A stretch of 32,000 bases of DNA from Nitrosopumilus maritimus SCM1 (GTDB taxonomy: Archaea > Thermoproteota > Nitrososphaeria > Nitrososphaerales > Nitrosopumilaceae): positions 390,001 to 422,000 of the forward strand of contig NC_010085.1 in the NCBI RefSeq assembly GCF_000018465.1. Reading direction: 5' to 3'. The translations under genes and the position numbers were made by a program. Shown here in pieces: positions 10,165-24,171 of this stretch (within the stretch, counting starts at the first letter, position 1; every line of letters begins with the position of its first letter). The notes beneath the pieces were generated by a model that worked only from the letters and a program-made list of their open reading frames with translations, was not told the DNA's origin and searched no databases.

Positions 10165-10557
10165 TTATTTACTAATCTTGGAAATCTGAGATATTTTTAC
10201 AATTTCCATTAGATTGTCCATGTCTATTGGTTTGTAAACAATACCATTTACTTTTAGTTTCTTGAGTTTTTCTTCAGTTAATGATGTGACATCTGCAGTT
10301 ACTGCAATTATTACAGCTTTGGAATCTTTTGCACGAATTTTTTTAATTGCATAGAATCCTGAACCATCTGGCATCATCATATCTACAAATACAATATCTG
10401 GATTGTTTGCAAAATAAAGATCAATTGCTTCTTTCCCATTGCCTCCTTTTCCAATTACCTCGATGCCTCTGTCTTCTAGCATTTCACTAAATACATCTAC
10501 TATGTCAGGCTCATCATCAACAACAATTCCTGTTATTCTCTTTGTGGAATCACTCAT
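10165..10557 (-). CDS. Receiver-only (CheY-like) response regulator, RR-A
   Basis: VVDDEPD, FVDMMMPDGSG (phospho-acceptor Asp), IAVTAD and VYKPI motifs. No output domain. Confidence 0.9.
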   Translation of the reverse strand: MSDSTKRITGIVVDDEPDIVDVFSEMLEDRGIEVIGKGGNGKEAIDLYFANNPDIVFVDMMMPDGSGFYAIKKIRAKDSKAVIIAVTADVTSLTEEKLKKLKVNGIVYKPIDMDNLMEIVKISQISKISK

Positions 10558-11559: not shown

Positions 11560-12183
11560 TTATGTTGTATCTGATGTGATGTCAAATGTATATGTAATTT
11601 GTACAGTTTCACCACTGTTTAATGTAACATCTGAAGTATCAATCACTGAAAACAAAATTCCTGAAGCAGTTGCACAATTATTATAATCTGCATCACTTGC
11701 TGCACGATTTGTACATATTCCTATTGAACGAATAGTATCTCCATTAGCTACATTTGTTGAACCAGCTTGAAAAGTCAAAGGACCAACCTGTGCAGTTTGT
11801 GATGATATTGTAACTGAAGTATCTTCTTTACAATTATTTTCTGCAATTGAGTTTCCGCTATCAAATGTTGAAGCTGTATCGCTTTCTGCTGGTGTTTGTG
11901 CTTCATCACTAACACAAATTGCACCTATCTGTGTGTTATCTGATGCACTGTTTGAATCTTGAAATGTTTGTTCCAAGAGAAAAGTTTCACCTGTATCAAC
12001 TAGCCTGTTGTGAACTTGTTGTGTGAAAACATTGTTTCCATTCGCATCTATCTTTTCAATTGTTGCAAACCCGTAAAATTTTTGTTCAAAATCATTTTTT
12101 TCAAAATCAAATGGAATTACAGCTGTTGTAAATACTGTAAAAAGTACTGCGGCACTAATCGTATAGGATGTTCTTTTTTGCAT
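11560..12183 (-). CDS. Secreted 4-Cys protein P1 (207 aa), paralog of 21535..22170
   Basis: Start moved to the Met at 12183, giving a signal-like MQKRTSYTISAAVLFTVFTTAV. The tracked 33-aa extension runs through the promoter. Full-length similarity to P2 with four conserved Cys. Confidence 0.75.
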   Translation of the reverse strand: MQKRTSYTISAAVLFTVFTTAVIPFDFEKNDFEQKFYGFATIEKIDANGNNVFTQQVHNRLVDTGETFLLEQTFQDSNSASDNTQIGAICVSDEAQTPAESDTASTFDSGNSIAENNCKEDTSVTISSQTAQVGPLTFQAGSTNVANGDTIRSIGICTNRAASDADYNNCATASGILFSVIDTSDVTLNSGETVQITYTFDITSDTT

Positions 12184-12210
12184 TATATTTTGTGAAAATC
12201 GAAAATTTAC

Positions 12211-12221
12211 TAATATAGTTA
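12211..12221 (-). promoter_or_regulatory. TATA-like element TAACTATATTA of P1, identical 11-mer upstream of P2 (22195..22205)
   Basis: The plus-strand TAATATAGTTA occurs 28 nt from the P1 ATG and 25 nt from the P2 ATG. Confidence 0.5.
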
Positions 12222-12230
12222 TGGGCGAAC

Positions 12231-12244
12231 TTCCAACTTTGGAA
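12231..12244. promoter_or_regulatory. Inverted repeat TTCCA-ACTT-TGGAA (site 1 of recurrent motif)
   Basis: Perfect 5-bp arms, N4 spacer. It lies 48-61 nt upstream of the P1 ATG, just beyond its TATA box. Confidence 0.5.
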
Positions 12245-12260
12245 ATTTTTTTGTAAAAAT

Positions 12261-12276
12261 TTTCCATTTGTGGAAA
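12261..12276. promoter_or_regulatory. Inverted repeat TTTCCA-TTTG-TGGAAA (site 2)
   Basis: Perfect 6-bp arms, N4 spacer. It lies 43-58 nt upstream of the giant-ORF ATG at 12319. Confidence 0.5.
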
Positions 12277-12318
12277 GTACATTCAAGCCTTTTTAGTCGT
12301 CAAAAAATTTTTTTTTCT

Positions 12319-15300
12319 ATGAAATGGGAGATACCTCTACTGGTAAGTTTCGTATTTTTGCTCGGAATTTTTTCGTCATTTCCCGTCGTTGATAGTAATT
12401 TTACAATTGATGAAAATGGTTTGAAACATTATGTTCTAACTCCTGAAAAAAATATTTCATCATTTGATGTTGTTGCAACGTCTCTTTCTAAATACAATCG
12501 TGAAGTTGATTTTGATGAACAAGATCCGTATTTTGTTTTCTTTTTGTTCGTGTTATTGTTAGTTTTACTGTATCGTAGCAATTTCGTTTTGCAAGTAAAA
12601 CAATCTGTACTAAAAACCTTTGCATCTGATTACATCAATTTGTTTTTGAAAAATAATTTTGCACAAACATTATTTTCAGAGAACAAAATTAATCTAAAAG
12701 AAATTTTTGTTATTTTATCTTCATCAAATACAAAATTACAAAACAATTCAACTGTTTTGTATCGAAATTGTTCTAATGTATTAATAAATTCCAAGAAATT
12801 CTTTGTTTCTAAAAAAATTATCGTTGTTTTGTTGTTGTTTGTTGTTTTAATTGTTCCAGTTTATAATCATGCATATGCAGCCTCTGGTGATATTACAAAA
12901 TCTCTTGTTGATTCATTTGAGTTTGATAATCAAGCAGGTTCATACCCTGATATTATTCAAATAGATTCTAATACATTTGCAATATCTTATCAGGGACAAG
13001 GATCTGGTGTTCTTTCTGGATACATTCAAACTTTTGATATTGATAGTCTAGGAAACATTTCATCACTAAACACATTACAATTTGATCCTGATGCAATTGT
13101 ATACACTGAATTAGTTGCAGTAGATTCAGATACGTTTGCAATTGTTTACAGAAGTACTGATGCTGATGGTTTTATTCATACAGTAGACATTACTGGAGCT
13201 GGTGTAATTACAAACGGAACAAATTATGAATTCGATACTACTGCAGGTACTGATCCTCAAATAGTTGCAGTAGATTCAGATACATTTGCAGTTGTGAATC
13301 AAGGTGGTGGTGCTGATGGTTGGTTGCGAACACTAAACATATCTTCAGATGGACTAACCATTTCAGAAGAAGATAGTTTTGAATTTGATACAAATGAAGG
13401 TAGAGACAATGACATTATACAGGTAGATTCAGACACATTTTTGATTGTGTATAGGGGTGTTGAAGCTGACGGATTTGCAAAAACAATCAACATTTCAACT
13501 GATGGTACGATTAATTCTGTAGAAGACACATTAGAGTTTGAGCCTACCTTTGATGCATATCATAATGCTATTGCCCAGGTAGATTCAGACACATTTGTAG
13601 TTGCATATAGAGACATTGACAGTGATGGTCGACTAGCCACGCTTGATGTTACTAGTTCAGGCTCTATTACTCTAGTTGAGACATATGAATACGACACGAA
13701 CACTGCACAACATCCTGACATCAAGAGATTAGATGACAAATCATTTGTGATTGCATATCAGGGAGCAGGAAGTGATGGATTTATCAAAACAATTCCTATC
13801 ACTGCCTCCGGTAATATCGGAACCGTAACTGATACCTATGAATTTGATACTGGAAACGGTCGTTTCCCATCAATAATCAGTATAGATGGAAATACAGTAG
13901 CAATTGCTAGCCGTGGTGGAGGAAATGATGGTTTCTTGGATACCATATTTATCGATGTTGAACTTGCAGGCACAGATACTCCTTCTTTTGTAGAGGTTGA
14001 TGATTCATCAAAAACTGCCATAATTATGGCTAGTTCTACGCCTGTAGTCGTCAGTGAGGGTCTAAATTCTATAAATCCGGAGTTATTCCCTGCATCCACC
14101 GTTAATCCTACACATGGATTTGAAATGGGAATTTATGCCTCATCCACGCCTATTCCTGCCCATGAAGTGACAATTTCTACTATCAAGACCAATGATACCT
14201 TTGAATTTGACACTGCCGATGCAGAGACACCTGATTTGGTTCAGGTGGACACAGACACGTTTGCAGTAGTATACAAGGGAACTGATAATGATGGATTCAT
14301 CAAAACAGTAGATATCACAAGCACAGGCACGATCACTGACACTGGAAACTCCCTAGAATTTGATACTGCAGATGGATGGACACCAAATATTGTGCCTGTA
14401 GACACTGATACATTTGCAGTTGTGTATAATGGAACTGACAGTGATGGATTCGTTAAAACCTTAAATATTAGTGGAGTAGGTGCGATCACTGACACTGGAA
14501 ACTCCCTAGAATTTGATATCGCAGATGGGCTTTATCCTGATATTGTTGCAGTTGATTCAGATACATTTGCGATCGTATATACTGGAACAGATACTGATGG
14601 ATTCATTAAAACCTTAAATATTAGTGGAGTAGGTGCGATCACTGACACTGGAAACTCCTTAGAATTTGATACTGGAACTGGAATATTTCCTGATATCCTT
14701 GCAGTTGATTCAGACACTTTTGTGATTTCTTACACTGGTAACGGAAATGACGGATTTGTAAAAACGGTTGACATTACTGGCGCAGGTGTAATTAGCAGTG
14801 TAATTGACACCTTGGAATTTGATACATCCACTGCCTATGAAACATCTCTCGTAAAGATTGATGATGACACATTTGCAGTAGCATACAGAGGTCCAGGCTC
14901 TGATGGATTTGTCAAAACATTTGATATTGATAGTTCCGGAAACATCAACAATTCAATCACTGATTCACTTGAGTTTGATACTGGAAACGGCAGAGAGCCT
15001 GACATGGTTAGTCTTGGTTCTGGTAATTATGGAATAGCTTATCGTGGTAATAGTAATGATGGATTTTTTGTAATTGTAACAATTGATGATGCAGGAAACA
15101 TTGGAAACTCTGTTGTTGAATCACTTGAATACAACACATCAAATGGATATTTCCCTAGCTTAATTGGAGTTGATCTTAATACATTTGCAATTGCACATAG
15201 AGGAAATGCTGAAGATGGTTTCATTACTACTATTGACACATCAAACGAATTAGCATTTTCTGATTCAGATACTTTGGATGTTGTAGAATCTGTAGATTTA

Positions 15301-18300
15301 ATTAAAAAATATGCAATATTTGGAACTTCTGCTCCTATATTTGAACATTCAGTAATAACAACTGGCAATTCTATAATCGATGATGCAAATTCAACTCCAC
15401 TAGTAGTTTCTTCTGCTATTACACTAAAAGGATATTTCCTAAATGCAAATTCAACTCCAAATGTTTCTGATTCTGGAAATACTGTTGCACAATATACAAG
15501 AACTGCATCTGATATTTTAGATGTTGCAGAACAAAATACTGAATTTAAAAATTATACTATATCAAATTCAACAACACCCGACATTGTAAGTAGTGGAATA
15601 ATTTCATTTTCTCTTTCAGCAAACTCTACTCCACTTCTAACAAGTAACGCAACATCATCAGCTGACATCTCATCCAACTCTACTCCACTTCTCTCTAGCA
15701 ATGCCACAACTGTTGCAATGTTCGTACTTGATCCATCAACTATTCCATCTGTATCTAGTACTGCAACTGTTGCATTCACTTTGTCAGCAAACTCTACTCC
15801 ACTTCTAACAAGTAACGCAACATCATCAGCTGACATCTCATCCAACTCTACTCCTGTACTATCCAGCAACGCAACATCAACTGTCATGAGAATACTCAAC
15901 GCAACATCCATCCCATCACTATTCAGTAACGCAACATCATCAGCTGACATCTCATCCAACTCTACTCCTGTACTATCCAGCAACGCAACATCAACTGTCA
16001 TGAGAATACTCAACGCAACATCCATCCCATCACTATTCAGTAACGCAACATCATCAGCTGACATCTCATCCAACTCTACTCCTGTACTATCCAGCAACGC
16101 AACATCAACTGTCATGAGAATACTCAACGCAACATCCATCCCATCACTATTCAGTAACGCAACATCATCAGCTGACATCTCATCCAACTCTACTCCTGTA
16201 CTATCCAGCAACGCAACATCAACTGTCATGAGAATACTCAACGCAACATCCATCCCATCACTATTCAGTAACGCAACATCATCAGCTGACATCTCATCCA
16301 ACTCTACTCCTGTACTATCCAGCAACGCAACATCAACTGTCATGAGAATACTCAACGCAACATCCATCCCATCACTATTCAGTAACGCAACATCATCAGC
16401 TGACATCTCATCCAACTCTACTCCTGTACTATCCAGCAACGCAACATCAACTGTCATGAGAATACTCAACGCAACATCCATCCCATCACTATTCAGTAAC
16501 GCAACATCATCAGCTGACATCTCATCCAACTCTACTCCTGTACTATCCAGCAACGCAACATCAACTGTCATGAGAATACTCAACGCAACATCCATCCCAT
16601 CACTATTCAGTAACGCAACATCATCAGCTGACATCTCTGGTTCATCAACACCATTCCTCTCAAGTAACGCAACATCAACTGTCATGAGAATACTCAACGC
16701 AACATCCATCCCATCACTATTCAGTAACGCAACATCATCAGCTGACATCTCATCCAACTCTACTCCTGTACTATCCAGCAACGCAACATCAACTGTCATG
16801 AGAATACTCAACGCAACATCCATCCCATCACTATTCAGTAACGCAACATCATCAGCTGACATCTCTGGTTCATCAACACCATTCCTCTCAAGTAACGCAA
16901 CAGTATCACTATCTGGTTCATCAACACCATTCCTCTCAAGTAACGCAACATCAACTGGAATGTTTGACATCTCATCCAACTCTACTCCATTCCTCTCAAG
17001 TAACGCAACAGTATCACTATCTGGTTCATCAACACCATTCCTCTCAAGTAACGCAACATCAACTGTCATGAGAATACTCAACGCAACATCTGAACCAGTG
17101 ATATCAAGTAACGCTACCACTGTTGCAATGTTCAATCTTAACGCAACATCAATTCCATCACTATTTGGTAACGCAACAGTATCGCTATCTGGATCCTCTA
17201 CTCCTGTACTATCAAGTAACGCAACTTATGGAACACTTGTAGCATCAGCTAACACCACTCCATTCCTCTCAAGTAACGCAACAGTATCACTATCTGGTTC
17301 ATCAACACCATTCCTCTCAAGTAACGCAACATCAACTGTGATGCACATATTATCTGCAAACTCCAGTCCGGTTGTTTCCAGTAATGCAATTACAACTGGA
17401 ATGTTTAACATCTCAGCAAACTCTACTCCTGTACTATCAAGTAACGCAACATCAACTGTCATGAGAATACTTAACGCAACATCTGAACCAGTTCTATCTG
17501 ATGATGCACAGATAACTGGAATGTTTAACATCTCAGCAAACTCTACTCCTGTACTATCAAGTAACGCAACATCAACTGTCATGAGAATACTTAACGCAAC
17601 ATCTGAACCAGTTCTATCTGATGATGCACAGATAACTGGAATGTTTAACATCTCAGCAAACTCTACTCCTGTACTATCAAGCAACGCAACATCAACTGTC
17701 ATGAGAATACTTAACGCAACATCTGAACCAGTTCTATCTGATGATGCACAGATAACTGGAATGTTTAACATCTCAGCAAACTCTACTCCTGTACTATCAA
17801 GCAACGCAACATCAACTGTCATGAGAATACTTAACGCAACATCTGAACCAGTTCTATCTGATGATGCACAGATAACTGGAATGTTTAACATCTCAGCAAA
17901 CTCCACTCCTGTACTATCTGACAATGCTCAAGTCACTGGAATGTTCACCATCAACGCAAACTCCACTCCTGTACTATCTGACAATGCTCAAGTCACTGGA
18001 ATGTTCACCATCAACGCAAACTCCACTCCTGTACTATCTGACAATGCTCAAGTCACTGGAATGTTCACCATCAACGCAAACTCCACTCCTGTACTATCTG
18101 ACAATGCTCAAGTCACTGGAATGTTCACCATCAACGCAAACTCCACTCCTGTACTATCTGACAATGCAACAAGTGATACAGTATTTGCCTTACTAACATC
18201 TGATGCCCCAAGTCTTACAGAATCAATTGATCAAATTGAGAGATATGCAATTAATGCAATAGATGTACCTGTTATTTCAGAATCTGTTGGAAAACCAAAA

Positions 18301-20613
18301 CACTCTAAACTATTGGCTACCTCAACACCTAGAATTACAGAATTTGGATTAATCGCAGGACATTATACACTTGAAACAACTTCGATCCCAGAAATATCTC
18401 ATTCTGGAAATATCCCTCCTAGAATAACATCTGCCAATGTTACATCTACTACTCAAATTGATATTGCTTTTGAACGAAACATAGATCGTAAATCTGTAAA
18501 ACCTGCTAATTTTGTTTTGACCGATCCATCCGCTACAATAAAGGGTGTAAAAACCACAAACAATGTAATAACTTTAAGACTAGATTCGGCAATCACATCT
18601 GGCCAAACCCCAACAATTGCAATTGCTGGTAATGCTGTCAAAGATACGGATGGAAACACTGTAGATAGTGTAACTGTTACTTCGGTTGACAAAGTTCCAC
18701 CAAAAGTAAAGAAAGCTTATGCTACAACAAAGTCTAGTATAGTGATTATATTTGACAAGAATGTTACTTCACAACTATCTGATTATTCCTCTCTACAAAT
18801 TCCAACAGGAACTTCCAAGACAATCTCTGGTCATACTGCTTCAGATAATGTGGTGACCTTAACAGTAAATTCTGCAGATATAACTGCACGTGCTCATGGC
18901 ACTATTACGATTTCATCTGGTCTGACTGACACAAATGGTAATTCATTTAACACTAACCACAATCCTGTATCTGTAATATCCAATATTGAGGAAGCTCCTG
19001 TAGAATTAGATGAAGATTTTACAGATTTGGTAATTACAACTGAAGAAATTGAAATTAAAGAAATTCTGGTCAAAACAAATGTCAAGGCAAAACTTGATCT
19101 TAGTAAATCTCCAACAAAAACTACCGTAACAGAAAACAGTGTAACTAAGAATAGAGTTCAAATTACAAATGAAATGAAAATCACTTCCTCAGATGGAACT
19201 GATGAAGAAGTTCAGATAGTTATTCCAAAAGATGTTTTGGTATCTGGTCCTCAAGATAAATTTACTGGCTCCATAGATTTACCTGAACCAAAGACAAACA
19301 ATTCATGTCCAATAAACCCTGATGGTAGTCAAATAGTAAGTTGTATTGCTATAGGATTGTCTGATGACGAATTAACTTTCAACAAGGCTGTAAAGATTAC
19401 AATTCCTGGCGAAGGTTCTTTGACACCTTATTACAGTACTGATAATACTACTTGGAATGCGATATCTACACTTTGTGATGCTGCTAACACTGCAGAAGTC
19501 AATGGAGTCTCAATATCTAGTGATGGTACAAGAGAATGTTACTTTGTAGATGGATCTGATATGATAATCTGGACTACTCACTTTACAGTATTTGGTACAT
19601 TATCCTCTACCTCGACTAGTTCTAGTTCAGGAGGGGGTTCCAGTGGTGATAATTCTGCTCCTTCTATAACTACTAGTATTGGACCTTCTATTACTGATAG
19701 TGGTCTTGGAGGAATTATAGGAAATACTGATCAACCATTAGTTCCTGGAGCAGAAATCAAAAACTATCCACTTGTATTTGATGGAATTGGCTATGATGAG
19801 AATAGCTTTAATTCTGTTCATACTGCAGTCATTGAAACAGAGCAACCCTTGAATGTAATTTTGAGTCTTTATGAAAATTCAGGTGCTCAAAATATTGAAC
19901 ATGTAGAAATGTATGTCAATCATTTCGGTCCTAGAGTCCTTAATGACAGAACTGAGACTGCTATTATCTATGACAAATTTACTGGCATTGAAATTCTTGA
20001 CCCATATGGTCTAATTTCTGATGCGACTGTATTGCCTACACTTTTAGATACTCAATCTCAATTTTATTTCCAAGTGTTCTTTGAAGAAGAAATTGAACAA
20101 TCTGATGTCTTGTTTAGAGTATGGGACAAAAATAGAAATTCAGTTGAATTACATTTGTCTGATGCATTAATGGTGGTAAAAGGAGAATCATCCTCTGAAG
20201 AACGCAATGTCACTGAGTCCGGAATTGTCTCTCCAACAGACCCATCAGAATCTGAAATTGTCTCTCCAGCAGACCCATCAGAATCTGAAATTGTCTCTCC
20301 AGCAGACCCATCAGAATCTGAAATCATATCTACAGAACTTCCACCTGAATCAGAAAAAATTAAAATCCCATCTGAACCTGAACTTGGAACGTATGTAGGA
20401 ATTCCTATGGACCCAGAACCTGGTATTGATGTAAACTTGCAGATGGACCCAGAACCTGGTATTGATGTAAACTTGCAGATGGACCCAGAACCTGGTATTG
20501 ATGTAAACTTGCAGATGGACCCAGAACCTGGTATTGATGTAAACAAACCAAAATCTTTGTTGGATTCAATATCTGAATTCTTTGAGGTTCTCACAAAACT
20601 GTTGAAATTCTAA
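12319..20613 (+). CDS. Giant (~2,764 aa) N-terminally membrane-anchored surface protein: 3 hydrophobic segments, two 7-repeat propeller-like blocks, ~1,000-aa N-X-S/T-rich repeat stalk, two Ig-like domains, Cys-containing globular domains, acidic C-terminal micro-repeats
   Basis: A single uninterrupted frame of 8.3 kb in stop-rich AT-rich DNA. The first ATG is at 12319 (the track used TTG at 12268, which lies inside a promoter palindrome). Domain calls come from internal repeats read in the translation. Confidence 0.85.
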   Translation: MKWEIPLLVSFVFLLGIFSSFPVVDSNFTIDENGLKHYVLTPEKNISSFDVVATSLSKYNREVDFDEQDPYFVFFLFVLLLVLLYRSNFVLQVKQSVLKTFASDYINLFLKNNFAQTLFSENKINLKEIFVILSSSNTKLQNNSTVLYRNCSNVLINSKKFFVSKKIIVVLLLFVVLIVPVYNHAYAASGDITKSLVDSFEFDNQAGSYPDIIQIDSNTFAISYQGQGSGVLSGYIQTFDIDSLGNISSLNTLQFDPDAIVYTELVAVDSDTFAIVYRSTDADGFIHTVDITGAGVITNGTNYEFDTTAGTDPQIVAVDSDTFAVVNQGGGADGWLRTLNISSDGLTISEEDSFEFDTNEGRDNDIIQVDSDTFLIVYRGVEADGFAKTINISTDGTINSVEDTLEFEPTFDAYHNAIAQVDSDTFVVAYRDIDSDGRLATLDVTSSGSITLVETYEYDTNTAQHPDIKRLDDKSFVIAYQGAGSDGFIKTIPITASGNIGTVTDTYEFDTGNGRFPSIISIDGNTVAIASRGGGNDGFLDTIFIDVELAGTDTPSFVEVDDSSKTAIIMASSTPVVVSEGLNSINPELFPASTVNPTHGFEMGIYASSTPIPAHEVTISTIKTNDTFEFDTADAETPDLVQVDTDTFAVVYKGTDNDGFIKTVDITSTGTITDTGNSLEFDTADGWTPNIVPVDTDTFAVVYNGTDSDGFVKTLNISGVGAITDTGNSLEFDIADGLYPDIVAVDSDTFAIVYTGTDTDGFIKTLNISGVGAITDTGNSLEFDTGTGIFPDILAVDSDTFVISYTGNGNDGFVKTVDITGAGVISSVIDTLEFDTSTAYETSLVKIDDDTFAVAYRGPGSDGFVKTFDIDSSGNINNSITDSLEFDTGNGREPDMVSLGSGNYGIAYRGNSNDGFFVIVTIDDAGNIGNSVVESLEYNTSNGYFPSLIGVDLNTFAIAHRGNAEDGFITTIDTSNELAFSDSDTLDVVESVDLIKKYAIFGTSAPIFEHSVITTGNSIIDDANSTPLVVSSAITLKGYFLNANSTPNVSDSGNTVAQYTRTASDILDVAEQNTEFKNYTISNSTTPDIVSSGIISFSLSANSTPLLTSNATSSADISSNSTPLLSSNATTVAMFVLDPSTIPSVSSTATVAFTLSANSTPLLTSNATSSADISSNSTPVLSSNATSTVMRILNATSIPSLFSNATSSADISSNSTPVLSSNATSTVMRILNATSIPSLFSNATSSADISSNSTPVLSSNATSTVMRILNATSIPSLFSNATSSADISSNSTPVLSSNATSTVMRILNATSIPSLFSNATSSADISSNSTPVLSSNATSTVMRILNATSIPSLFSNATSSADISSNSTPVLSSNATSTVMRILNATSIPSLFSNATSSADISSNSTPVLSSNATSTVMRILNATSIPSLFSNATSSADISGSSTPFLSSNATSTVMRILNATSIPSLFSNATSSADISSNSTPVLSSNATSTVMRILNATSIPSLFSNATSSADISGSSTPFLSSNATVSLSGSSTPFLSSNATSTGMFDISSNSTPFLSSNATVSLSGSSTPFLSSNATSTVMRILNATSEPVISSNATTVAMFNLNATSIPSLFGNATVSLSGSSTPVLSSNATYGTLVASANTTPFLSSNATVSLSGSSTPFLSSNATSTVMHILSANSSPVVSSNAITTGMFNISANSTPVLSSNATSTVMRILNATSEPVLSDDAQITGMFNISANSTPVLSSNATSTVMRILNATSEPVLSDDAQITGMFNISANSTPVLSSNATSTVMRILNATSEPVLSDDAQITGMFNISANSTPVLSSNATSTVMRILNATSEPVLSDDAQITGMFNISANSTPVLSDNAQVTGMFTINANSTPVLSDNAQVTGMFTINANSTPVLSDNAQVTGMFTINANSTPVLSDNAQVTGMFTINANSTPVLSDNATSDTVFALLTSDAPSLTESIDQIERYAINAIDVPVISESVGKPKHSKLLATSTPRITEFGLIAGHYTLETTSIPEISHSGNIPPRITSANVTSTTQIDIAFERNIDRKSVKPANFVLTDPSATIKGVKTTNNVITLRLDSAITSGQTPTIAIAGNAVKDTDGNTVDSVTVTSVDKVPPKVKKAYATTKSSIVIIFDKNVTSQLSDYSSLQIPTGTSKTISGHTASDNVVTLTVNSADITARAHGTITISSGLTDTNGNSFNTNHNPVSVISNIEEAPVELDEDFTDLVITTEEIEIKEILVKTNVKAKLDLSKSPTKTTVTENSVTKNRVQITNEMKITSSDGTDEEVQIVIPKDVLVSGPQDKFTGSIDLPEPKTNNSCPINPDGSQIVSCIAIGLSDDELTFNKAVKITIPGEGSLTPYYSTDNTTWNAISTLCDAANTAEVNGVSISSDGTRECYFVDGSDMIIWTTHFTVFGTLSSTSTSSSSGGGSSGDNSAPSITTSIGPSITDSGLGGIIGNTDQPLVPGAEIKNYPLVFDGIGYDENSFNSVHTAVIETEQPLNVILSLYENSGAQNIEHVEMYVNHFGPRVLNDRTETAIIYDKFTGIEILDPYGLISDATVLPTLLDTQSQFYFQVFFEEEIEQSDVLFRVWDKNRNSVELHLSDALMVVKGESSSEERNVTESGIVSPTDPSESEIVSPADPSESEIVSPADPSESEIISTELPPESEKIKIPSEPELGTYVGIPMDPEPGIDVNLQMDPEPGIDVNLQMDPEPGIDVNLQMDPEPGIDVNKPKSLLDSISEFFEVLTKLLKF
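12913..13970 (+). repeat. Seven tandem ~51-aa repeats (propeller-like block 1)
   Basis: Consensus .[FY]EFDT..G..P.I..VDSDTFA[IV]VY.G...DGF.KT..I...G.I, counted 7 times before a linker. Confidence 0.7.
14198..15245 (+). repeat. Seven tandem ~51-52-aa repeats (propeller-like block 2)
   Basis: Same consensus, 7 copies. Copies 2-4 share long identical DNA stretches (for example ...ttaaaaccttaaatattagtggagtaggtgcgatcactgacactggaaactcc at about 14453 and 14609, 156 nt apart). Confidence 0.7.
15811..16836 (+). repeat. In-frame tandem array, 114-nt (38-aa) period, 9 units, first 7 apparently identical
   Basis: The unit SNATSSADISSNSTPVLSSNATSTVMRILNATSIPSLF starts at 15811, 15925, 16039 and so on (period verified at several points). 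Unit 8 carries the GSSTPFL variant. Confidence 0.9.
17401..17880 (+). repeat. In-frame tandem array, 120-nt (40-aa) period, 4 units
   Basis: The unit MFNISANSTPVLSSNATSTVMRILNATSEPVLSDDAQITG repeats at 17401, 17521, 17641 and 17761. The only difference I noticed is a synonymous agt/agc change. Confidence 0.9.
17901..18167 (+). repeat. In-frame tandem array, 60-nt (20-aa) period, ~4.4 units
   Basis: The unit NSTPVLSDNAQVTGMFTINA. The lines at 17941, 18001 and 18061 are identical 60-mers. Confidence 0.9.
18415..18980 (+). other. Two consecutive Ig-like (bacterial Big_5/SbsA-like) domains within the giant ORF
   Basis: Pattern ...ITSANVTSTTQIDIAFERNIDRKSVKPANFVLTD...ITLRLDSAI...IAIAGNAVKDTDGNTV, then a second copy, KKAYATTKSSIVIIFDKNV...VTLTVNSADI...ITISSGLTDTNGNSF. 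Recognised by eye only. Confidence 0.5.
20227..20325 (+). repeat. 33-nt x3 in-frame micro-repeat (VSP[TA]DPSESEI)
   Basis: Read directly; units start at 20227, 20260 and 20293. Confidence 0.85.
20407..20546 (+). repeat. 36-nt x~3.9 in-frame micro-repeat (MDPEPGIDVNLQ)
   Basis: Read directly; units start at 20407, 20443, 20479 and 20515. Confidence 0.85.
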
Positions 20614-20756: not shown

Positions 20757-21020
20757 ATGATGAATAGTAGGACTGGAATCTTTGTTGGACTTGCAATCGC
20801 AGTATCTGTTGGAATTGCATTTGCAGCTTCATATTCTTCTGTGAATACATCTGACTCTGAAAAATTTGAATCAGTTGTAGATATGACCGTTGAACCTAGC
20901 AGTCCTCATATTGATGATGGTGCACTTGTTGGTATTGAAAATGAAAATTATGCTGTAAATGAAGATGGTAAACGTCATTATACTTTAGTGGCAGAAACAT
21001 CTCCTGTAGTTTCTCCTTAA
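20757..21020 (+). CDS. Small N-anchored protein S2 with C-terminal VNEDGKRHYTLVAETSP motif
   Basis: Paralog of S1 (shared N-terminus and C-terminal motif). A TTTAAATA box lies about 20-27 nt upstream of the ATG. Confidence 0.65.
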   Translation: MMNSRTGIFVGLAIAVSVGIAFAASYSSVNTSDSEKFESVVDMTVEPSSPHIDDGALVGIENENYAVNEDGKRHYTLVAETSPVVSP

Positions 21021-21034
21021 ATATAGTCTAAAAG

Positions 21035-21481
21035 TTATGACTTAGAATCTGTTATTTCTTCCCATGGTGAAACAAAATATTCGTATTTGTTTGGGTGTTT
21101 TGGTGATTCTTCTACCACAAACCAAACATTGAGTCTAGATTTGTCTCCCTCTAATAGATCACATGGTATTGATAATGTTTCATCATTTCTATCATACTTT
21201 AGTTCTTCAATGATATTTTCAGATTTTACAAAATATTGATGGTCGACTATCTTATCAAAATTTTTAGCAGAAACTATACAATTGTCGTTCTCTGTATCTA
21301 AAATTTCAATTGGGATGGATGAACGAACAATATTTCTTTCAATCACTTCCTCCCAAACAACTGGTGTGTATTGGTTAAAGAACAAAAACACAAGACTATT
21401 TTCATTTGTAGCAAAAATCAAAATTAATCCCGCTGCTATTGCCAATCCTATTAAGACGATTTTGTCATTTTTTGAGCTCAA
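21035..21481 (-). CDS. N-terminally anchored hypothetical protein (148 aa)
   Basis: MSSKNDKIVLIGLAIAAGLILIF is a TM segment followed by a ~115-aa soluble domain with 2 Cys. No motif recognised. Confidence 0.55.
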   Translation of the reverse strand: MSSKNDKIVLIGLAIAAGLILIFATNENSLVFLFFNQYTPVVWEEVIERNIVRSSIPIEILDTENDNCIVSAKNFDKIVDHQYFVKSENIIEELKYDRNDETLSIPCDLLEGDKSRLNVWFVVEESPKHPNKYEYFVSPWEEITDSKS

Positions 21482-21534: not shown

Positions 21535-22170
21535 CTAAGTTCCATCTGACTGTAGATTAAATGTGTATGTGATATCTACTGTCTCACCACTTGCTAAAGT
21601 AACATCTGATGTGTCAACTACAGCAAACAATGTTGTTGTACAATCACGAACATCATTATCTGAAGAGTCTGCATCACAAATTCCTATTGCTTCAACAGTG
21701 CTGCCTGCAAATAGGTTGTTACCAGTACCAGTACCTGCTGTAAATGTTAATGGTCCTATTGTTGCAATTTGAGAAGTACTGTCAACAGAACCATCTGTTT
21801 TACAGTTTTCTTCATCATCAGCACCACCTTCTGCTGCATCATGGTCTGTGTTGAATGTAGTGTTTGAGGTTGATTCAGCATATGATTCTGCAGCTGTTGC
21901 AGTTGTAAGGCAGATTGCACCAATTTGTGTAGCGTCAGTACCAATATCTGTTACTCCGGTAAATGCATTAGCAATTAGAAGATCTTCACCTTCATCAAAC
22001 AATTGATTGTGTACTGTTTGTGAAAGCATTTCATTTCCATTTGCATCGTGATATGTCATTGTGGCTTGTCCGTATAGGTTAAAGCCATCGTTAGTCATTG
22101 ATTGTGTTCCTGCGGGAATTACTAGAATTGCAATTAATCCTAGTAGTCCCATAGAAGCTATCTTGTACAT
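21535..22170 (-). CDS. Secreted 4-Cys protein P2 (211 aa), paralog of P1
   Basis: Signal peptide MYKIASMGLLGLIAILVIPAG. Blocks conserved with P1: DANGN, VHN.L.D.GE, TQIGAIC, NCK.D.SV, GPLTF.AG, IGIC, DTSDVTL.SGETV.ITYTF. Confidence 0.75.
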   Translation of the reverse strand: MYKIASMGLLGLIAILVIPAGTQSMTNDGFNLYGQATMTYHDANGNEMLSQTVHNQLFDEGEDLLIANAFTGVTDIGTDATQIGAICLTTATAAESYAESTSNTTFNTDHDAAEGGADDEENCKTDGSVDSTSQIATIGPLTFTAGTGTGNNLFAGSTVEAIGICDADSSDNDVRDCTTTLFAVVDTSDVTLASGETVDITYTFNLQSDGT

Positions 22171-22368: not shown

Positions 22369-24171
22369 ATGAAAATAAAGTCAAAACTATTTTTTGGTTT
22401 TGCAGTAGTTGTATCAATCACATTATTTTTAGGAATATTGACAAACTCTCAATCAAATATTGCGTCAGATGATTTCAAATCCATTGCCGAACGCGATCTT
22501 TTAGTTATACAAAATGCTGAAAAACTACAAAGACTTGCTGTAGATTCTGAGAATGGTCAAAGAGGATTTATCATTACTGGCAATGAATCATTTCTGGAAC
22601 CATACAATAGAGGTGTAGATGAATTCTTTGTTTTACTTGAAGAAGAAAAAAACCTGGTGTCTTACAATCCATCACAAGTAGAAAAATTAGAACATATTTC
22701 TCAACTATTTTCTGATTGGATAGAATCTGCTGGTTCTCCTGAAATTGAACTTGCAAGACAAATCCATTCTTCCCAAGATGATGCTCTGGAATCCATATTG
22801 TCTAATGAATCTGATATAATTTTAGATGAAATATATCAAATAATTTTGTTATTGGAAGGAAATTTACGAGATTCTGAAAATGTGGATGGATTTTTGCTAC
22901 TTGGAAAAATCAAGGCAGATATCTATGATACTGAGGTATCTCAACGAGAATATTTGATCTCAGGAAACGAAGATTTTCTTGTCTCATTTAATAGTGTCAA
23001 AATAGAATTACGTGAAAATATTCAGAATTTAGAAAATATTCTAAAAGATGATGAAGAGAACCTCCAGTTGATTTACTCCATTGGTAAACTATATCAAAAA
23101 TGGGATCAAGAAGTCGTTTATCCCAACATTGAGTCTAGAAGAAATATTGTCGAAAATTACAATTTGAATGAAGCCTCAATCCTACTTGAAAAAGAAACTG
23201 GAAAGAGAATTCTTGATGAGATAAGAACGGAATTTTCTGAATTTATTCAAATTGAAAATGAAAACACACAACAACGATTGGAAAACTCTTTGAATAATCA
23301 AGAACTTGTTCGAAATGTAATCATTATTGTGCTTGTTGCTAGTGTCGTATCTGCAGTGGTTTTGGCATTTCTTATCCTAAATTCTGTTTTAAACCCTTTA
23401 TCAAAATTAGAAAAAGTCATTCAACAGTTCAAAGAAGGAGATTATGCCCAAAAAATAGATATCAATTCTAATGATGAATTGGGAGATTTTTCAAAATCAT
23501 TTGATGCGATTAGAGAAATTTTAATCAAAAAAGAAAAACTCAAAAACATTGGTGAGCTGGCAACTCGACTCGCTCATGATTTGCGAAATCCCCTAGCTGT
23601 TATTCAGGGTGCAGTAAATTTGATGAAAACTGATTTGCAAGAAAAAGATGAAAGTCTTGATAAACGCTTTAGAATGATTGATGCGGCAATTTTGAGAATG
23701 ACTCATCAAATCAATGACGTAATGGATTTTGTACGAGTTTCAAATCTTCAAATCGAAACTCATTCCTTATTGGAACTCTTACAGTCCTCCATATCTAGAA
23801 CAACTAAAAATGATTCAATTACAATTGAATTGCCTGAAAACGACATAAAACTACGATGTGATGCCCATAAACTGGATATTTTGTTTGTAAATTTACTATC
23901 TAACGCAATTGATGCTGTTAAAGAAAATGGAACAATCAAAATCCGCTTTTTTGATGAAACGTCTCATGTGAAGATAGAGCTTGAAGACTCTGGATCTCCA
24001 ATCCCTCCTAACATTCTTGAAGAAATGTTTGAACCATTGTTTACTACAAAACAAGTTGGTACTGGTTTAGGGCTTGCAAGCTGTAAAAATATTGTAGAAC
24101 AACATCGTGGTGAAATTTCAGCAAAAACCAATCCTACTGTCATATCTCTAACTTTATCAAAGACTCTGTAA
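22369..24171 (+). CDS. Sensor histidine kinase: TM - extracellular CHASE3-like domain - TM - HAMP - HisKA - HATPase_c
   Basis: CHASE3-type signature ENGQRGFIITGNESFLEPY (with a second half, SQREYLISGNEDFLVSF). Second TM IIIVLVASVVSAVVLAFLIL. H-box LATRLAHDLRNPL, N-box LLSNAIDAV, G-boxes EDSGSPIP and GTGLGLASC. Confidence 0.9.
   Translation: MKIKSKLFFGFAVVVSITLFLGILTNSQSNIASDDFKSIAERDLLVIQNAEKLQRLAVDSENGQRGFIITGNESFLEPYNRGVDEFFVLLEEEKNLVSYNPSQVEKLEHISQLFSDWIESAGSPEIELARQIHSSQDDALESILSNESDIILDEIYQIILLLEGNLRDSENVDGFLLLGKIKADIYDTEVSQREYLISGNEDFLVSFNSVKIELRENIQNLENILKDDEENLQLIYSIGKLYQKWDQEVVYPNIESRRNIVENYNLNEASILLEKETGKRILDEIRTEFSEFIQIENENTQQRLENSLNNQELVRNVIIIVLVASVVSAVVLAFLILNSVLNPLSKLEKVIQQFKEGDYAQKIDINSNDELGDFSKSFDAIREILIKKEKLKNIGELATRLAHDLRNPLAVIQGAVNLMKTDLQEKDESLDKRFRMIDAAILRMTHQINDVMDFVRVSNLQIETHSLLELLQSSISRTTKNDSITIELPENDIKLRCDAHKLDILFVNLLSNAIDAVKENGTIKIRFFDETSHVKIELEDSGSPIPPNILEEMFEPLFTTKQVGTGLGLASCKNIVEQHRGEISAKTNPTVISLTLSKTL

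What the first reader, a model, noticed from the sequence alone, without database searches (positions are those of the whole stretch)
12319..20613. 2,764-aa modular surface protein with an N-terminal (not C-terminal) membrane anchor
One uninterrupted 8.3-kb frame encodes, in order: three hydrophobic segments; 7+7 propeller-like repeats; a ~1,000-aa repeat stalk; two Ig-like domains; a domain with 4 Cys (NNSCPINPDGSQIVSCIAIG...STLCDAANTAEV...TRECYFVDGSDMIIWTTHFTVFGT); a Ser/Gly linker (SSTSTSSSSGGGSSGD); a further globular domain; acidic PE-rich micro-repeats; and an amphipathic tail (LLDSISEFFEVLTKLLKF). There is no C-terminal TM segment and no sorting signal that I recognise. Hence the putative ligand-binding propellers sit next to the membrane and the acidic C-terminus would be distal. 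This is the inverse of typical stalk-then-head adhesin layouts. Giant hypervariable surface proteins are known in marine archaeal genomic islands, but this architecture is not one I can assign to a described family.
Basis: partly seen in the sequence, partly recalled or inferred. Interest (0 to 1): 0.7.

Follow-up and report, generated by a model that had tools for sequence, protein, structure and literature searches.

The report
Biofilm-induced giant archaeal surface adhesin
The 8.3-kb gene is real and is Nmar_0456 of the marine ammonia-oxidising archaeon Nitrosopumilus maritimus, already reported as its most strongly biofilm-induced gene and a putative giant adhesin; its unusual three-segment N-terminal membrane leader may be cut off rather than serve as the anchor.

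Summary
ATG 12319 to stop 20613 encodes 2,764 aa. In order: three N-terminal hydrophobic segments, 7+7 propeller blades, about 48 stalk units of 16-20 aa, two Big_5 Ig domains, a 4-Cys domain, a Ser/Gly linker, a beta-sandwich domain, acidic PE repeats and an amphipathic tail. There is no C-terminal TM segment and no PEFG-CTERM signal.

The window is Nitrosopumilus maritimus SCM1 and the protein is Nmar_0456. A 2025 ISME J paper reports it as the top biofilm-induced gene (log2FC 6.0) and calls it a large adhesion protein. So the function is largely known; the anchoring and architecture are not.

- The N-terminal extension is translated (dN/dS 0.13-0.33) and fits an in-out-in-out topology.
- Its third segment aligns with the cleavable signal peptide of homologs and keeps an AxA site in all orthologs.
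- So the "anchor" may be cut off.
- The architecture belongs to a large, unnamed family seen so far only in Nitrosopumilales genomes. That family normally has a plain signal peptide and C-terminal attachment modules.

New here: a portable three-part leader, a conserved accessory-gene cassette, and twofold stalk-length variation between strains.

The parts
12319..20613 (+). Complete gene Nmar_0456 (2,764 aa), a giant surface protein
   Evidence: start codon supported by orthologs
12331..12390 (+). Hydrophobic segment 1 (aa 5-24), predicted in-to-out
   Evidence: Kyte-Doolittle 2.2; AF2 helix 4-19; conserved in L001-L003 and L016
12397..12447 (+). Invariant loop-1 motif NFTIDENGLKHYVLTPE within an acidic loop (net charge -6), predicted outside
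   Evidence: the same motif type is found in the small neighbour protein and in L016
12529..12573 (+). Hydrophobic segment 2 (aa 71-85), predicted out-to-in
12574..12816 (+). Basic loop (aa 86-166; net +6 counted over aa 87-164, the flanking residues 86, 165 and 166 are also basic), predicted cytoplasmic
   Evidence: AF2 gives low-confidence helices
12817..12879 (+). Hydrophobic segment 3 plus the c-region ending AYA (aa 167-187). This is the family's ancestral signal peptide; the putative signal-peptidase site lies between A187 and A188
   Evidence: alignment to N-terminal signal peptides of P0114 and P0014; A/V at -3 and A at -1 in all orthologs read and AFA|AP in L016
12886..13962 (+). Seven-bladed beta-propeller 1 (aa 190-548)
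   Evidence: AF2 pLDDT above 90 with 28 strands; best PDB matches are Photorhabdus PLL/PHL lectins, TM 0.74-0.78
14200..15288 (+). Beta-propeller 2 (aa 628-990), seven 51-52-aa blades of the same type
   Evidence: 153-nt tandem repeat
15391..18348 (+). Stalk of about 48 units of 16-20 aa (STPVLSSNATSTVMRILNAT and variants), with 80 N-X-S/T sequons
   Evidence: the stalk is twice as long in the L005 ortholog
18415..18972 (+). Two Big_5 (PF13205) Ig-like domains (aa 2033-2218)
19024..19602 (+). Cys domain (CysD, aa ~2236-2428), beta-rich, with no Pfam model
19603..19650 (+). Ser/Gly linker SSTSTSSSSGGGSSGD
   Evidence: predicted disordered in AF2
19765..20178 (+). C-terminal beta-sandwich domain (CTD, aa 2483-2620), with no Pfam model
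20200..20544 (+). Acidic Pro/Glu-rich micro-repeats, predicted disordered
20554..20610 (+). Conserved amphipathic C-terminal helix SLLDSISEFFEVLTKLLKF
11560..12282 (-). Divergently transcribed neighbour Nmar_0455 (arCOG08819 family), induced in biofilm. The true start is probably near 12180, because orthologs are 206 aa
20757..21020 (+). Small 87-aa protein (Nmar_0457 by position): an N-terminal hydrophobic segment followed by the motif NYAVNEDGKRHYTL
   Evidence: counterpart in L016
21035..21481 (-). Nmar_0458-family accessory protein
21535..22170 (-). Nmar_0459, a paralog of Nmar_0455, very highly expressed in biofilm

Best explanation
Nmar_0456 is a functional, biofilm-induced giant cell-surface adhesin of Nitrosopumilus maritimus.

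Export and topology. The protein is exported by the Sec pathway. Its first 187 aa form a three-part membrane leader: segment 1 (in-to-out), an acidic outside loop with an invariant motif, segment 2 (out-to-in), a basic cytoplasmic loop, and segment 3 (in-to-out). Everything after aa 188 is therefore extracellular.

The ectodomain, in order:
- two seven-bladed beta-propellers whose closest solved folds are bacterial sugar-binding lectins; these are the probable ligand-binding heads;
- a fast-evolving, length-polymorphic stalk of 20-aa Ser/Thr/Asn-rich units, which in SCM1 is probably heavily N-glycosylated;
- two Big_5 Ig domains;
- a family-wide C-terminal module: Cys domain, Ser/Gly linker, beta-sandwich, acidic spacer and an amphipathic helix.

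Evolutionary origin. The protein derives from a large family, seen so far only in Nitrosopumilales genomes, with the layout signal peptide - propeller - Ig - CysD - CTD. This lineage duplicated the propeller, expanded the stalk, and added two TM segments upstream of the old signal peptide. It also replaced the family's usual C-terminal helical or PEFG-CTERM attachment module with a 19-aa amphipathic helix.

Anchoring, which is inferred and not shown. I put about 50% on segment 3 still being cleaved at AYA|AS. In that case the adhesin is not covalently held by its N-terminus. It would instead be retained through its C-terminal module, the S-layer, the co-induced neighbour proteins or the matrix.
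For: Identity and expression.
- The sequence is an exact match to ABX12352.1 of N. maritimus SCM1.
- In PMC12448741, Nmar_0456 has log2FC 6.04, padj 3.5e-194 and TPM 226.6 in biofilm against 6.0 in planktonic culture. It has the largest fold change in that list and is labelled 'large adhesion protein'.

The gene is functional.
- A complete Nitrosopumilus genome (L005) carries an uninterrupted ortholog of at least 3,604 aa.
- The leader is under purifying selection: dN/dS is 0.13-0.33, with no indels or stops across four lineages.

Topology.
- Only three hydrophobic segments exist.
- Loop 1 has net charge -6 and loop 2 net +6.

Domains.
- Propeller 1 is modelled with pLDDT above 90, and its best PDB matches are PLL/PHL lectins with TM 0.74-0.78.
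- Two Big_5 domains are present.
- CysD and CTD are modelled at pLDDT 70-89.

Family.
- A search with the C-terminal module found 1,425 clusters.
- Homologs P0114 and P0133 have the layout SP + propeller + Ig + CysD + CTD.
- All ten genome loci recovered are Nitrosopumilales.

Segment 3 is the old signal peptide.
- It aligns with the signal peptides of homologs.
- The AxA site is conserved in orthologs and in the divergent leader of L016.

C-terminal end.
- The tail helix is conserved in orthologs and strongly amphipathic.
- There is no PEFG-CTERM signal.

Glycosylation.
- The stalk has 80 sequons against 32 expected from composition.
- The S-layer protein of N. maritimus carries 17 N-glycans at N-X-S/T sites (PMC11153153).
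Against: - No protein-level evidence for this protein was found. The held supplements of one proteome paper do not mention it.
- The adhesin function rests on transcript induction and domain content, not on a mutant or a binding assay.
- The resemblance to lectins is fold-level only (11-12% identity), and seven-bladed propellers are generic.
- The related Np. piranensis showed no detectable N-glycosylation (PMC12153357). The L005 ortholog has a much lower sequon density, 68 in 3,604 aa, so glycosylation of the stalk may not be essential.
- Cleavage at AYA|AS is inferred from sequence rules only. A conserved 160-aa two-TM extension is easier to explain if it stays attached.
- AF2 gave low confidence for the leader and for the stalk-like linker.
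Confidence: 0.6

Rival explanations
1. All three N-terminal segments stay attached and form a polytopic membrane anchor. The propellers sit next to the membrane, under the S-layer. The stalk projects the C-terminal Cys domain, beta-sandwich, acidic region and helix outward as the adhesive tip. This polarity resembles that of N-terminally retained RTX adhesins.
For: - The leader is under purifying selection along its whole length, including segment 1, segment 2 and the basic loop.
- There are no other hydrophobic segments.
- The PEFG-CTERM signal is absent.
- This orthogroup has both gained the two-TM extension and lacks the C-terminal helical module found in most family members. That pattern looks like an anchor swap.
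- The CTD gives weak CBM9 and Ig-like fold matches, which are compatible with a binding tip.
Against: - Segment 3 has every hallmark of a cleaved signal peptide and is homologous to one.
- The AxA site is retained even in the divergent L016 leader.
- Family members with PEFG-CTERM are anchored at the opposite end.
- The propellers, the best candidate ligand binders, would be buried beneath a near-continuous S-layer (PMC11153153).
Confidence: 0.35
2. The protein is not primarily an adhesin. It could be a hypervariable glycan-coated surface shield or decoy that diversifies cell-surface epitopes against viruses or grazers, or a particle- or polysaccharide-capturing lectin. On this view the biofilm induction is secondary.
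For: - Stalk length varies twofold and repeat units are recently expanded.
- The gene is repeatedly truncated or deleted in natural populations: L002 lies next to an IS element, and L001 and L015 carry an in-frame deletion.
- Distribution among AOA genomes is irregular (PMC12448741).
- The propeller fold is lectin-like.
Against: - Transcript abundance in planktonic culture is only 6 TPM, which is too low for a constitutive shield.
- Transcript level rises 66-fold on surfaces, together with other surface genes.
Confidence: 0.1
3. The long frame is an annotation artefact or a decaying pseudogene, or the true gene starts at the internal TTG at 12757, which would give a plain signal peptide.
For: - The first 600 nt are AT-rich, 28% GC.
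- A TTG at 12757 precedes the signal-peptide-like segment.
- The L003 ortholog is split into several frames.
Against: - The 160 upstream codons have dN/dS 0.13-0.33 with no stops or indels in four lineages.
- The same three-part leader recurs on a different ectodomain in L016.
- L005 carries an intact ortholog.
- The gene is strongly and specifically expressed.
- An additional internal start cannot be excluded.
Confidence: 0.03

Closest known systems
'Large adhesion proteins' of S-layer-bearing ammonia-oxidising archaea (Nmar_0455-0459 and NVIE_000940-001020 regions; PMC12448741)
   Same: This is the same protein. It is biofilm-induced, listed under arCOG02562 'beta-propeller repeat containing protein', and proposed to mediate attachment-first biofilm formation and to sit in the S-layer.
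   Different: That paper does not discuss domain architecture, topology, signal peptide, anchoring or length variation. Text searches for 'transmembrane', 'signal peptide' and 'AlphaFold' found nothing.
Unnamed Nitrosopumilales family: signal peptide - DSDTF-type propeller - Ig - CysD - Ser/Gly linker - CTD - acidic spacer - C-terminal module (e.g. P0114, P0133)
   Same: The propeller blades are homologous, as are the CysD and CTD domains, and the domain order is the same.
   Different: Those members have a plain N-terminal signal peptide. They usually end in a helical module of about 60 aa (WAGY...IPxWVK...EFvxALxYL), in IPxWIKNNAGWW repeats, or in PEFG-CTERM. Nmar_0456 has a two-TM extension upstream of the signal peptide, two propellers, a stalk of about 1,000 aa, and only a 19-aa amphipathic helix at the end.
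Photorhabdus PLL/PHL seven-bladed propeller lectins (PDB 5MXG, 6RG2, 8Q82)
   Same: They are the best structural matches to propeller 1. Foldseek E-values are 2e-12 to 1e-11 and the target-normalised TM-score is 0.74-0.78.
   Different: Sequence identity is 9-12% and there is no sequence-family match. Sugar-binding residues were not examined. The PLL/PHL proteins are small soluble lectins, not domains of a giant protein.
N-terminally retained giant RTX adhesins (LapA, MpIBP, SiiE type; from my own knowledge)
   Same: They are giant proteins with a long repetitive extender and binding modules. The polarity 'anchor at the N-terminus, tip at the C-terminus' would match if the leader stays attached.
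   Different: Those adhesins are bacterial and secreted by type I systems. They have an outer-membrane retention module, Ca-binding RTX repeats and BIg extender domains. None of these was detected here, and the archaeon has no outer membrane.
Serine-rich repeat glycoprotein adhesins of Gram-positive bacteria (GspB/Fap1 type) and extended signal peptides of giant autotransporters (from my own knowledge)
   Same: They have an unusually long N-terminal leader ahead of the cleavage site, and a long Ser-rich, glycosylated repeat stalk carrying a binding region.
   Different: No KxYKxGKxW signal, no LPXTG and no accessory Sec genes were found. The predicted glycosylation here is N-linked. The leader here contains two additional membrane-spanning segments.
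PEFG-CTERM / archaeosortase-type sorting of thaumarchaeal surface proteins (TIGR04296)
   Same: Relatives in the same CTD family use it; the P0145 tail scores 44 bits. The PE-rich repeats here contain the sequence 'PEPG'.
   Different: The tail of Nmar_0456 does not match TIGR04296 even at E<=10. It is amphipathic and charged, not a TM helix.

Membership tests
PEFG-CTERM sorting-signal proteins (TIGR04296) | C-terminal PEFG motif followed by a hydrophobic TM helix and a basic tail | tested here: not met
   NCBIfam scan of the last 71 aa at E<=10 gave no TIGR04296 hit. The positive control, the P0145 tail, scored 44.2 bits against a cut-off of 25. No hydrophobic segment lies in the C-terminal region.
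Big_5 bacterial Ig-like domain (PF13205) | Match to the Pfam model above the gathering threshold | tested here: met
   aa 2033-2218 scanned alone: E 2.4e-12, 48 bits against a cut-off of 23.6, in two stretches. The ortholog P0109 carries a precomputed PF13205 hit.
PLL/PHL-type propeller lectins | Seven-bladed beta-propeller fold | tested here: met
   The AF2 model has pLDDT above 90 and 28 strands. Foldseek TM-score is 0.74-0.78 to 5MXG, 6RG2 and 8Q82.
PLL/PHL-type propeller lectins | Sequence-family membership and conserved inter-blade sugar-binding residues | tested here: inconclusive
   Identity is only 9-12% and phmmer finds no PDB match. The binding-site residues were not compared.
Nitrosopumilales propeller-Ig-CysD-CTD surface proteins (undescribed family) | Homologous CysD and CTD domains in this order near the C-terminus, downstream of variable heads | tested here: met
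   phmmer with aa 2219-2626 found 1,425 clusters at E<=1e-3. Of the top 150, 29 have both domains in order. P0114 and P0133 also share the propeller.
Nitrosopumilales propeller-Ig-CysD-CTD surface proteins (undescribed family) | Plain N-terminal signal peptide directly before the first domain | tested here: not met
   Here the homologous signal peptide starts 166 aa from the N-terminus, behind two further hydrophobic segments.
Sec signal peptide / signal peptidase I substrate | Basic n-region, h-region of 7-17 hydrophobic residues, and small uncharged residues at -3 and -1 | tested here: met
   The sequence is KKFFVSKK / IIVVLLLFVVLIVPVY / NHAYA|AS. Position -1 is A and -3 is A or V in all six orthologs whose junction was read. 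This was judged by inspection; no dedicated predictor was available.
Sec signal peptide / signal peptidase I substrate | Actual cleavage of the precursor | not testable with these tools
   This needs N-terminomics or Edman sequencing of the native protein.
RTX / LapA-type giant adhesins | C-terminal RTX nonapeptide repeats with a T1SS signal, and an N-terminal retention module | tested here: not met
   No Pfam or NCBIfam match of that kind was found on the whole protein.
Serine-rich repeat glycoprotein adhesins | KxYKxGKxW-type signal peptide and an LPXTG anchor | tested here: not met
   NCBIfam gave 0 families on the whole protein and on aa 1-194.
arCOG02562 (beta-propeller repeat containing protein) | Assignment by arCOG profile | not tested
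   The assignment is taken from the supplement of PMC12448741. No arCOG library was available here.

The most novel reading that the evidence does not exclude
The N-terminal leader has three parts: TM1, an outside loop with the invariant motif I-D-x-x-G-x-K-H-x-V-L, then TM2, a basic loop and a cleavable signal peptide. This leader, together with the co-conserved small genes, may form a previously undescribed, dedicated export-and-tethering system for giant adhesins in S-layered Nitrosopumilales.

The small genes are:
- an 87-97-aa membrane protein with the same motif;
- the Nmar_0455/0459 paralogs;
- Nmar_0458.

In this reading the adhesin is cut from its own leader. It is then held non-covalently by the membrane-displayed motif, by the accessory proteins, or through the S-layer. 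Different ectodomains can be plugged into the same cassette, as seen in L016.
Probability: 0.15. Interest if true: 0.75.

Novelty: new variant of a known kind. Interest (0 to 1): 0.5.

Why it matters
Ammonia-oxidising archaea are among the most abundant microbes in the ocean, and N. maritimus SCM1 is their model organism. How cells enclosed in a near-continuous S-layer attach to particles is unknown. This gene shows the strongest transcriptional response to surface growth.

Three questions turn a transcriptomic hit into a testable mechanism for marine-snow colonisation:
- which end of the protein is attached to the cell;
- whether the lectin-like propellers or the C-terminal module form the adhesive tip;
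- whether the three-part leader and its conserved accessory genes form a dedicated anchoring device.

The analysis also defines two unnamed domains that are widespread in this family (CysD and CTD), a portable leader, and a locus that varies in natural populations by repeat expansion, truncation and in-frame deletion.

Tried and rejected
Searches that found nothing
- Pfam and NCBIfam on the whole protein gave nothing above threshold.
- PDB sequence searches with the propeller, the C-terminal region, the family terminal module, Nmar_0458 and Nmar_0459 found nothing.
- A genome scan with aa 1-644 found no locus, because the peptide patterns were too strict.
- The exact protein is not on record in the contig index.

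Searches that were limited
- The third word-indexed homolog search, using a 15-sequence profile, returned only 6 proteins. Low-complexity words probably saturated the candidate list.

Hypotheses tested
- Is the C-terminal helix a remnant of the family's WAGY module? An HMM built from 35 modules against the tail scored -4.1 bits. The result is not significant, so the idea remains only an impression.
- Is loop 1 homologous to Nmar_0457? Pairwise BLAST gave E 0.8. The motif match to the L016 small protein gave E 0.002. This is suggestive only.
- Does the gene start only at the internal TTG 12757? Rejected on purifying selection and on recurrence of the leader.
- Is it a pseudogene? Rejected.
- Does the composition anomaly indicate horizontal transfer? 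GC rises to 0.435 and GC skew falls to -0.55 at 16-17 kb. Both are explained by the Ser/Thr/Asn codon repeats of the stalk.

Literature
- I looked for proteomic detection. The held supplements of PMC6593220 do not mention the protein, and PMC12974425 has no held supplements.
- One cluster look-up, spent on the taxonomy of metagenomic family members, returned no names.
Full report
1. Observation

The window contains one uninterrupted frame from a TTG at 12268 to the stop at 20613. The first ATG is at 12319 and gives 2,764 aa. The ATG is the real start. All orthologs begin MKWE(I/L)PLL, and two of them have stop codons a few codons upstream. The GenBank protein of exactly this sequence is also 2,764 aa.

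- Kyte-Doolittle peaks occur only at aa 5-24, 71-85 and 167-182. None lies in the remaining ~2,580 aa.
- There are fourteen blade repeats of about 51 aa, in two sets of seven.
- The stalk has about 48 units of 16-20 aa. The consensus is STPVLSSNATSTVMRILNAT, encoded by tandem DNA arrays that are 94-99% identical.
- Two Ig-like domains pass the Pfam Big_5 threshold when scanned alone.
- Four cysteines lie at aa 2330, 2342, 2386 and 2407.
- After these come a Ser/Gly linker and a further beta-sandwich domain.
- The C-terminal region ends in perfect 33- and 36-nt PE-rich micro-repeats and a predicted C-terminal helix.
- That helix has a hydrophobic moment of 0.55, which only 0.05% of shuffles reach.

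2. Identity and what is already known

Exact-sequence look-up identifies the window as Nitrosopumilus maritimus SCM1. The protein is ABX12352.1 / WP_012214839.1 / A9A166, named 'beta strand repeat-containing protein' or 'hypothetical'. The neighbours are Nmar_0452 (response regulator) and Nmar_0460 (CHASE3 histidine kinase).

A 2025 ISME J paper on AOA biofilms (PMC12448741) lists Nmar_0456 under locus tag NMAR_RS02435, with these values:
- log2 fold change 6.04, the largest in the list;
- adjusted p 3.5e-194;
- TPM 226.6 in biofilm against 6.0 in planktonic culture.

[quoted passage not shown] The authors call Nmar_0455-0459 an adhesion region. They propose that the adhesin sits in the S-layer, do not exclude the EPS, and note that N. 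piranensis lacks these genes. The paper's text contains nothing on topology, signal peptides or domain structure. So the function 'biofilm adhesin' is published. The architecture and the anchoring question are not.

3. The N-terminal region

The first 160 codons are AT-rich, but they are clearly translated. Between the window and three orthologous loci (L001, L002, L003) there are no indels or stops. Substitutions concentrate at third codon positions, and dN/dS is 0.13-0.33.

Charge distribution fits a topology with a short N-terminus inside, then TM1. Next is an acidic 46-aa loop outside (net -6), then TM2, then a basic 81-aa loop inside (net +6, not counting the flanking KK). TM3 follows, and everything after it is outside. 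AF2 places helices on the three segments, but with low confidence.

The key point is the nature of segment 3. It has the sequence KKFFVSKK - IIVVLLLFVVLIVPVY - NHAYA|ASGDI. In homologs that have a plain N-terminal signal peptide, the propeller begins at the same junction: P0114 ...SVPLSYA|AQGDIGSVVDSLEFD and P0014 ...APKLASA|APGDIGDAVIESLEFD. These align column for column with the window's AYA|ASGDITKSLVDSFEFD. Position -1 is Ala and position -3 is Ala or Val in all six orthologs whose junction was read.

Segment 3 is therefore the family's ancestral cleavable signal peptide, with a lineage-specific two-TM extension added upstream of it.

A metagenome scan with the leader found a divergent second example, L016. 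It has MKWEIPLLL..., a loop with SYIDSDGIKHHVAV, a second TM, a basic loop, and a third segment ending FAFA|AP. That leader is attached to a different ectodomain. The three-part leader is thus a portable module, and it keeps its AxA site.

This tilts me towards cleavage (about 50%) over retention (about 35%), but neither is shown. In favour of retention are the selection on the whole extension and the fact that this orthogroup lacks the C-terminal attachment modules of its relatives.

4. The ectodomain

Propeller 1 (aa 190-548) is modelled with pLDDT above 90 as seven four-stranded blades. The best solved matches are the Photorhabdus PLL/PHL lectins, with E 2e-12 and TM 0.74-0.78, ahead of generic WD40-like propellers. 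This is compatible with sugar binding but does not prove it. Relatives of the propeller are widespread in secreted bacterial proteins, many carrying T9SS sorting domains or LamG.

The stalk carries 80 N-X-S/T sequons against 32 expected from its composition. N. maritimus does N-glycosylate such sites on its S-layer protein, with 17 glycans per monomer (PMC11153153). The stalk is therefore probably a glycan-coated rod or thread in SCM1. Two caveats apply:
- the L005 ortholog has far fewer sequons per residue;
- Np. piranensis showed no N-glycosylation (PMC12153357).

AF2 gave low confidence for the stalk-like linker between the propellers, so the stalk's conformation is open.

The C-terminal model shows two beta-rich domains, CysD (pLDDT 70-87) and CTD (76-89). 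It also shows disordered Ser/Gly and PE regions and the terminal helix. Foldseek finds only generic V-set Ig, CBM9 and transglutaminase-barrel matches at E about 1e-3.

5. The family

An exhaustive phmmer search with aa 2219-2626 found 1,425 clusters at 50% identity, 329 of them at E<=1e-10. CysD and CTD are separable domains. Of the top 150 hits, 29 have both domains, 64 have only CysD and 53 have only CTD. In most members the CTD lies 90-150 aa from the C-terminus. It is followed by an acidic PE-rich spacer and then one of three endings:
- a helical module of about 60 aa (consensus ...WAGYSSESASDSELLEALGIEG..IPSWVKK...W...G.I...EFVNALKYL...);
- tandem IPxWIKNNAGWWAxG motifs;
- rarely, a PEFG-CTERM signal, as in P0145, which matches TIGR04296.

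None of these domains has a Pfam model.

Members such as P0114 (1,417 aa) and P0133 (1,169 aa) combine a plain signal peptide, the same propeller, Ig domains, CysD and CTD. All ten genome loci recovered with CTD patterns are Nitrosopumilus, Nitrosarchaeum or other Nitrosopumilales.

The architecture is therefore not unassignable. It is a derived member of a large, undescribed family seen so far only in Nitrosopumilales genomes. The constant C-terminal part of that family is the likelier cell-proximal end in its relatives.

Nmar_0456 and its orthologs (P0109, P0110, P0116, L005) are distinguished by the tail SLLDSISEFFEVLTKLLKF in place of those modules. A test of the tail as a remnant of the helical module was not significant.

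6. Variation at the locus

- L005, a complete Nitrosopumilus sp. chromosome (NZ_OZ253671.1), has an uninterrupted ortholog of at least 3,604 aa. It has 7+7 blades and a stalk of about 2,070 aa, against about 1,040 aa here.
- L004 has an ortholog of over 3,080 aa with one frameshift, at 1.9x coverage.
- L003/L006 has a version of about 11.6 kb split into several frames.
- L002 is truncated at about aa 712 and is followed by unrelated genes and an IS240/rve transposase.
- L001 and L015 are independent contigs from two different metagenomes. Both carry the same in-frame deletion, which fuses aa 1-364 to the last 329 aa of the downstream histidine kinase.

The gene is thus intact and under selection in some strains. 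In others it has been expanded, truncated or deleted, as expected for a flexible surface-protein locus.

7. The cassette

Nmar_0455 and Nmar_0459 are paralogs (44% identity). They flank the gene in the orthologous loci and are induced in biofilm, with Nmar_0459 reaching 26,171 TPM. Nmar_0458 and a small 87-aa membrane protein (20757-21020) are also conserved neighbours.

The small protein ends in N[YF]xVNEDGKRHYTL, which resembles the invariant loop-1 motif NFTIDENGLKHYVL of the leader. The derived pattern occurs only at these two places in the six-frame translation of the window.

L016 has the same set of genes beside its different leader-bearing giant protein:
- a homolog of Nmar_0458 (E 5e-29);
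- a homolog of Nmar_0459 (E 2e-26);
- a 97-aa protein ending FYIDDKGIKHFVL.

This suggests a conserved accessory system, whose role in export, tethering or matrix formation is unknown.

8. Mechanism and verdict

Shown:
- the gene is real and intact;
- it is expressed on surfaces;
- its product is predicted to be extracellular after aa 188;
- it is built from the listed domains;
- it belongs to the family described in section 5.

Inferred:
- adhesion is its function, from published induction and domain content;
- the propellers bind ligands;
- the stalk is N-glycosylated.

Unresolved: how it stays on the cell.

Interest is moderate. The function is not a surprise and is already in the literature. 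The three-part leader, the unnamed domains and the conserved cassette are new and testable in a key model organism.

Noticed in passing
L001 2464-4539 and L015 4001-6076 (window equivalents 12319-13410 joined to about 23182-24171): Two contigs from different metagenome sources (an ENA assembly and a JGI metagenome) carry the same 691-aa in-frame fusion. It joins the first 364 aa of the giant protein (leader plus about 3.5 blades) to the TM-HAMP-HisKA-HATPase part of the downstream CHASE3 kinase ortholog. The chimera is topologically consistent and looks like a real deletion allele.
   Followed up: partly
window 20757-21020 (+); L003 12586-12849; L004 9434-9697; L016 1283-1576 (-): A conserved small membrane protein (87-97 aa) ends in a motif of the type IDxxGxKH(Y/F)xL. 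The same type of motif is invariant in loop 1 of the giant protein's leader (aa 27-43). It could be a shared docking motif, or a clue to the evolutionary origin of the leader.
   Followed up: partly
window 11560-12282 (-), 21035-21481 (-), 21535-22170 (-); L016 162-1250: Nmar_0455 and Nmar_0459 are paralogs (44% identity). With Nmar_0458 they form a conserved set of accessory genes around leader-bearing giant proteins, including one with a different ectodomain (L016). Nmar_0459 reaches about 26,000 TPM in biofilm. None has a Pfam, NCBIfam or PDB sequence match.
   Followed up: partly
L002 5781-8603: In this Logan contig the ortholog stops at about aa 712-733. It is followed by unrelated genes and an rve/DDE_Tnp_IS240 transposase, so the gene is truncated by a rearrangement in that population, or the contig is misassembled.
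   Followed up: partly
window 15552-17135 (-), 17226-17924 (-), 15039-15368 (-), 20064-20594 (-): Long open frames on the opposite strand inside the gene are shadows of the codon-biased repeats. In L003 a gene caller actually annotated a series of 88-aa minus-strand ORFs of this kind in place of the stalk.
   Followed up: yes
window 15001-19000: GC skew is strongly negative (down to -0.55) and GC is raised (up to 0.435) over the stalk. This reflects the Ser/Thr/Asn/Ala codon repeats, not foreign origin.
   Followed up: yes
proteins P0112-P0161 (family members, not in the window): Two recurrent C-terminal modules have no Pfam model. One is a helical module of about 60 aa, 'WAGY...IPxWVK...EFvxALxYL'. 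The other is tandem 'IPxWIKNNAGWWAxGxIxDxxFxxGIqYL' motifs. They follow the CTD in many Nitrosopumilales surface proteins and are candidates for a common cell-attachment device.
   Followed up: partly
L003 829-12445 (same genome as L006): In a complete 1.59-Mb Nitrosopumilus sp. chromosome, the ortholog of about 11.6 kb is split into at least four frames (1385, 355, 88, 1181 and 995 aa). Either it is a pseudogene or it contains long-read errors in the repeats.
   Followed up: no
window 2111-4177 (+): A 688-aa family-2 glycosyltransferase, similar to cellulose or PNAG synthase, lies 8 kb upstream. It could be relevant to matrix or glycan synthesis, but no link to the adhesin was examined.
   Followed up: no
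window 22369-24171 (+) and 10165-10557 (-): A CHASE3-HAMP histidine kinase (Nmar_0460, log2FC +1.67 in biofilm) and a stand-alone receiver protein (Nmar_0452) bracket the adhesion region. They may regulate it. The kinase gene is inverted in L003.
   Followed up: no
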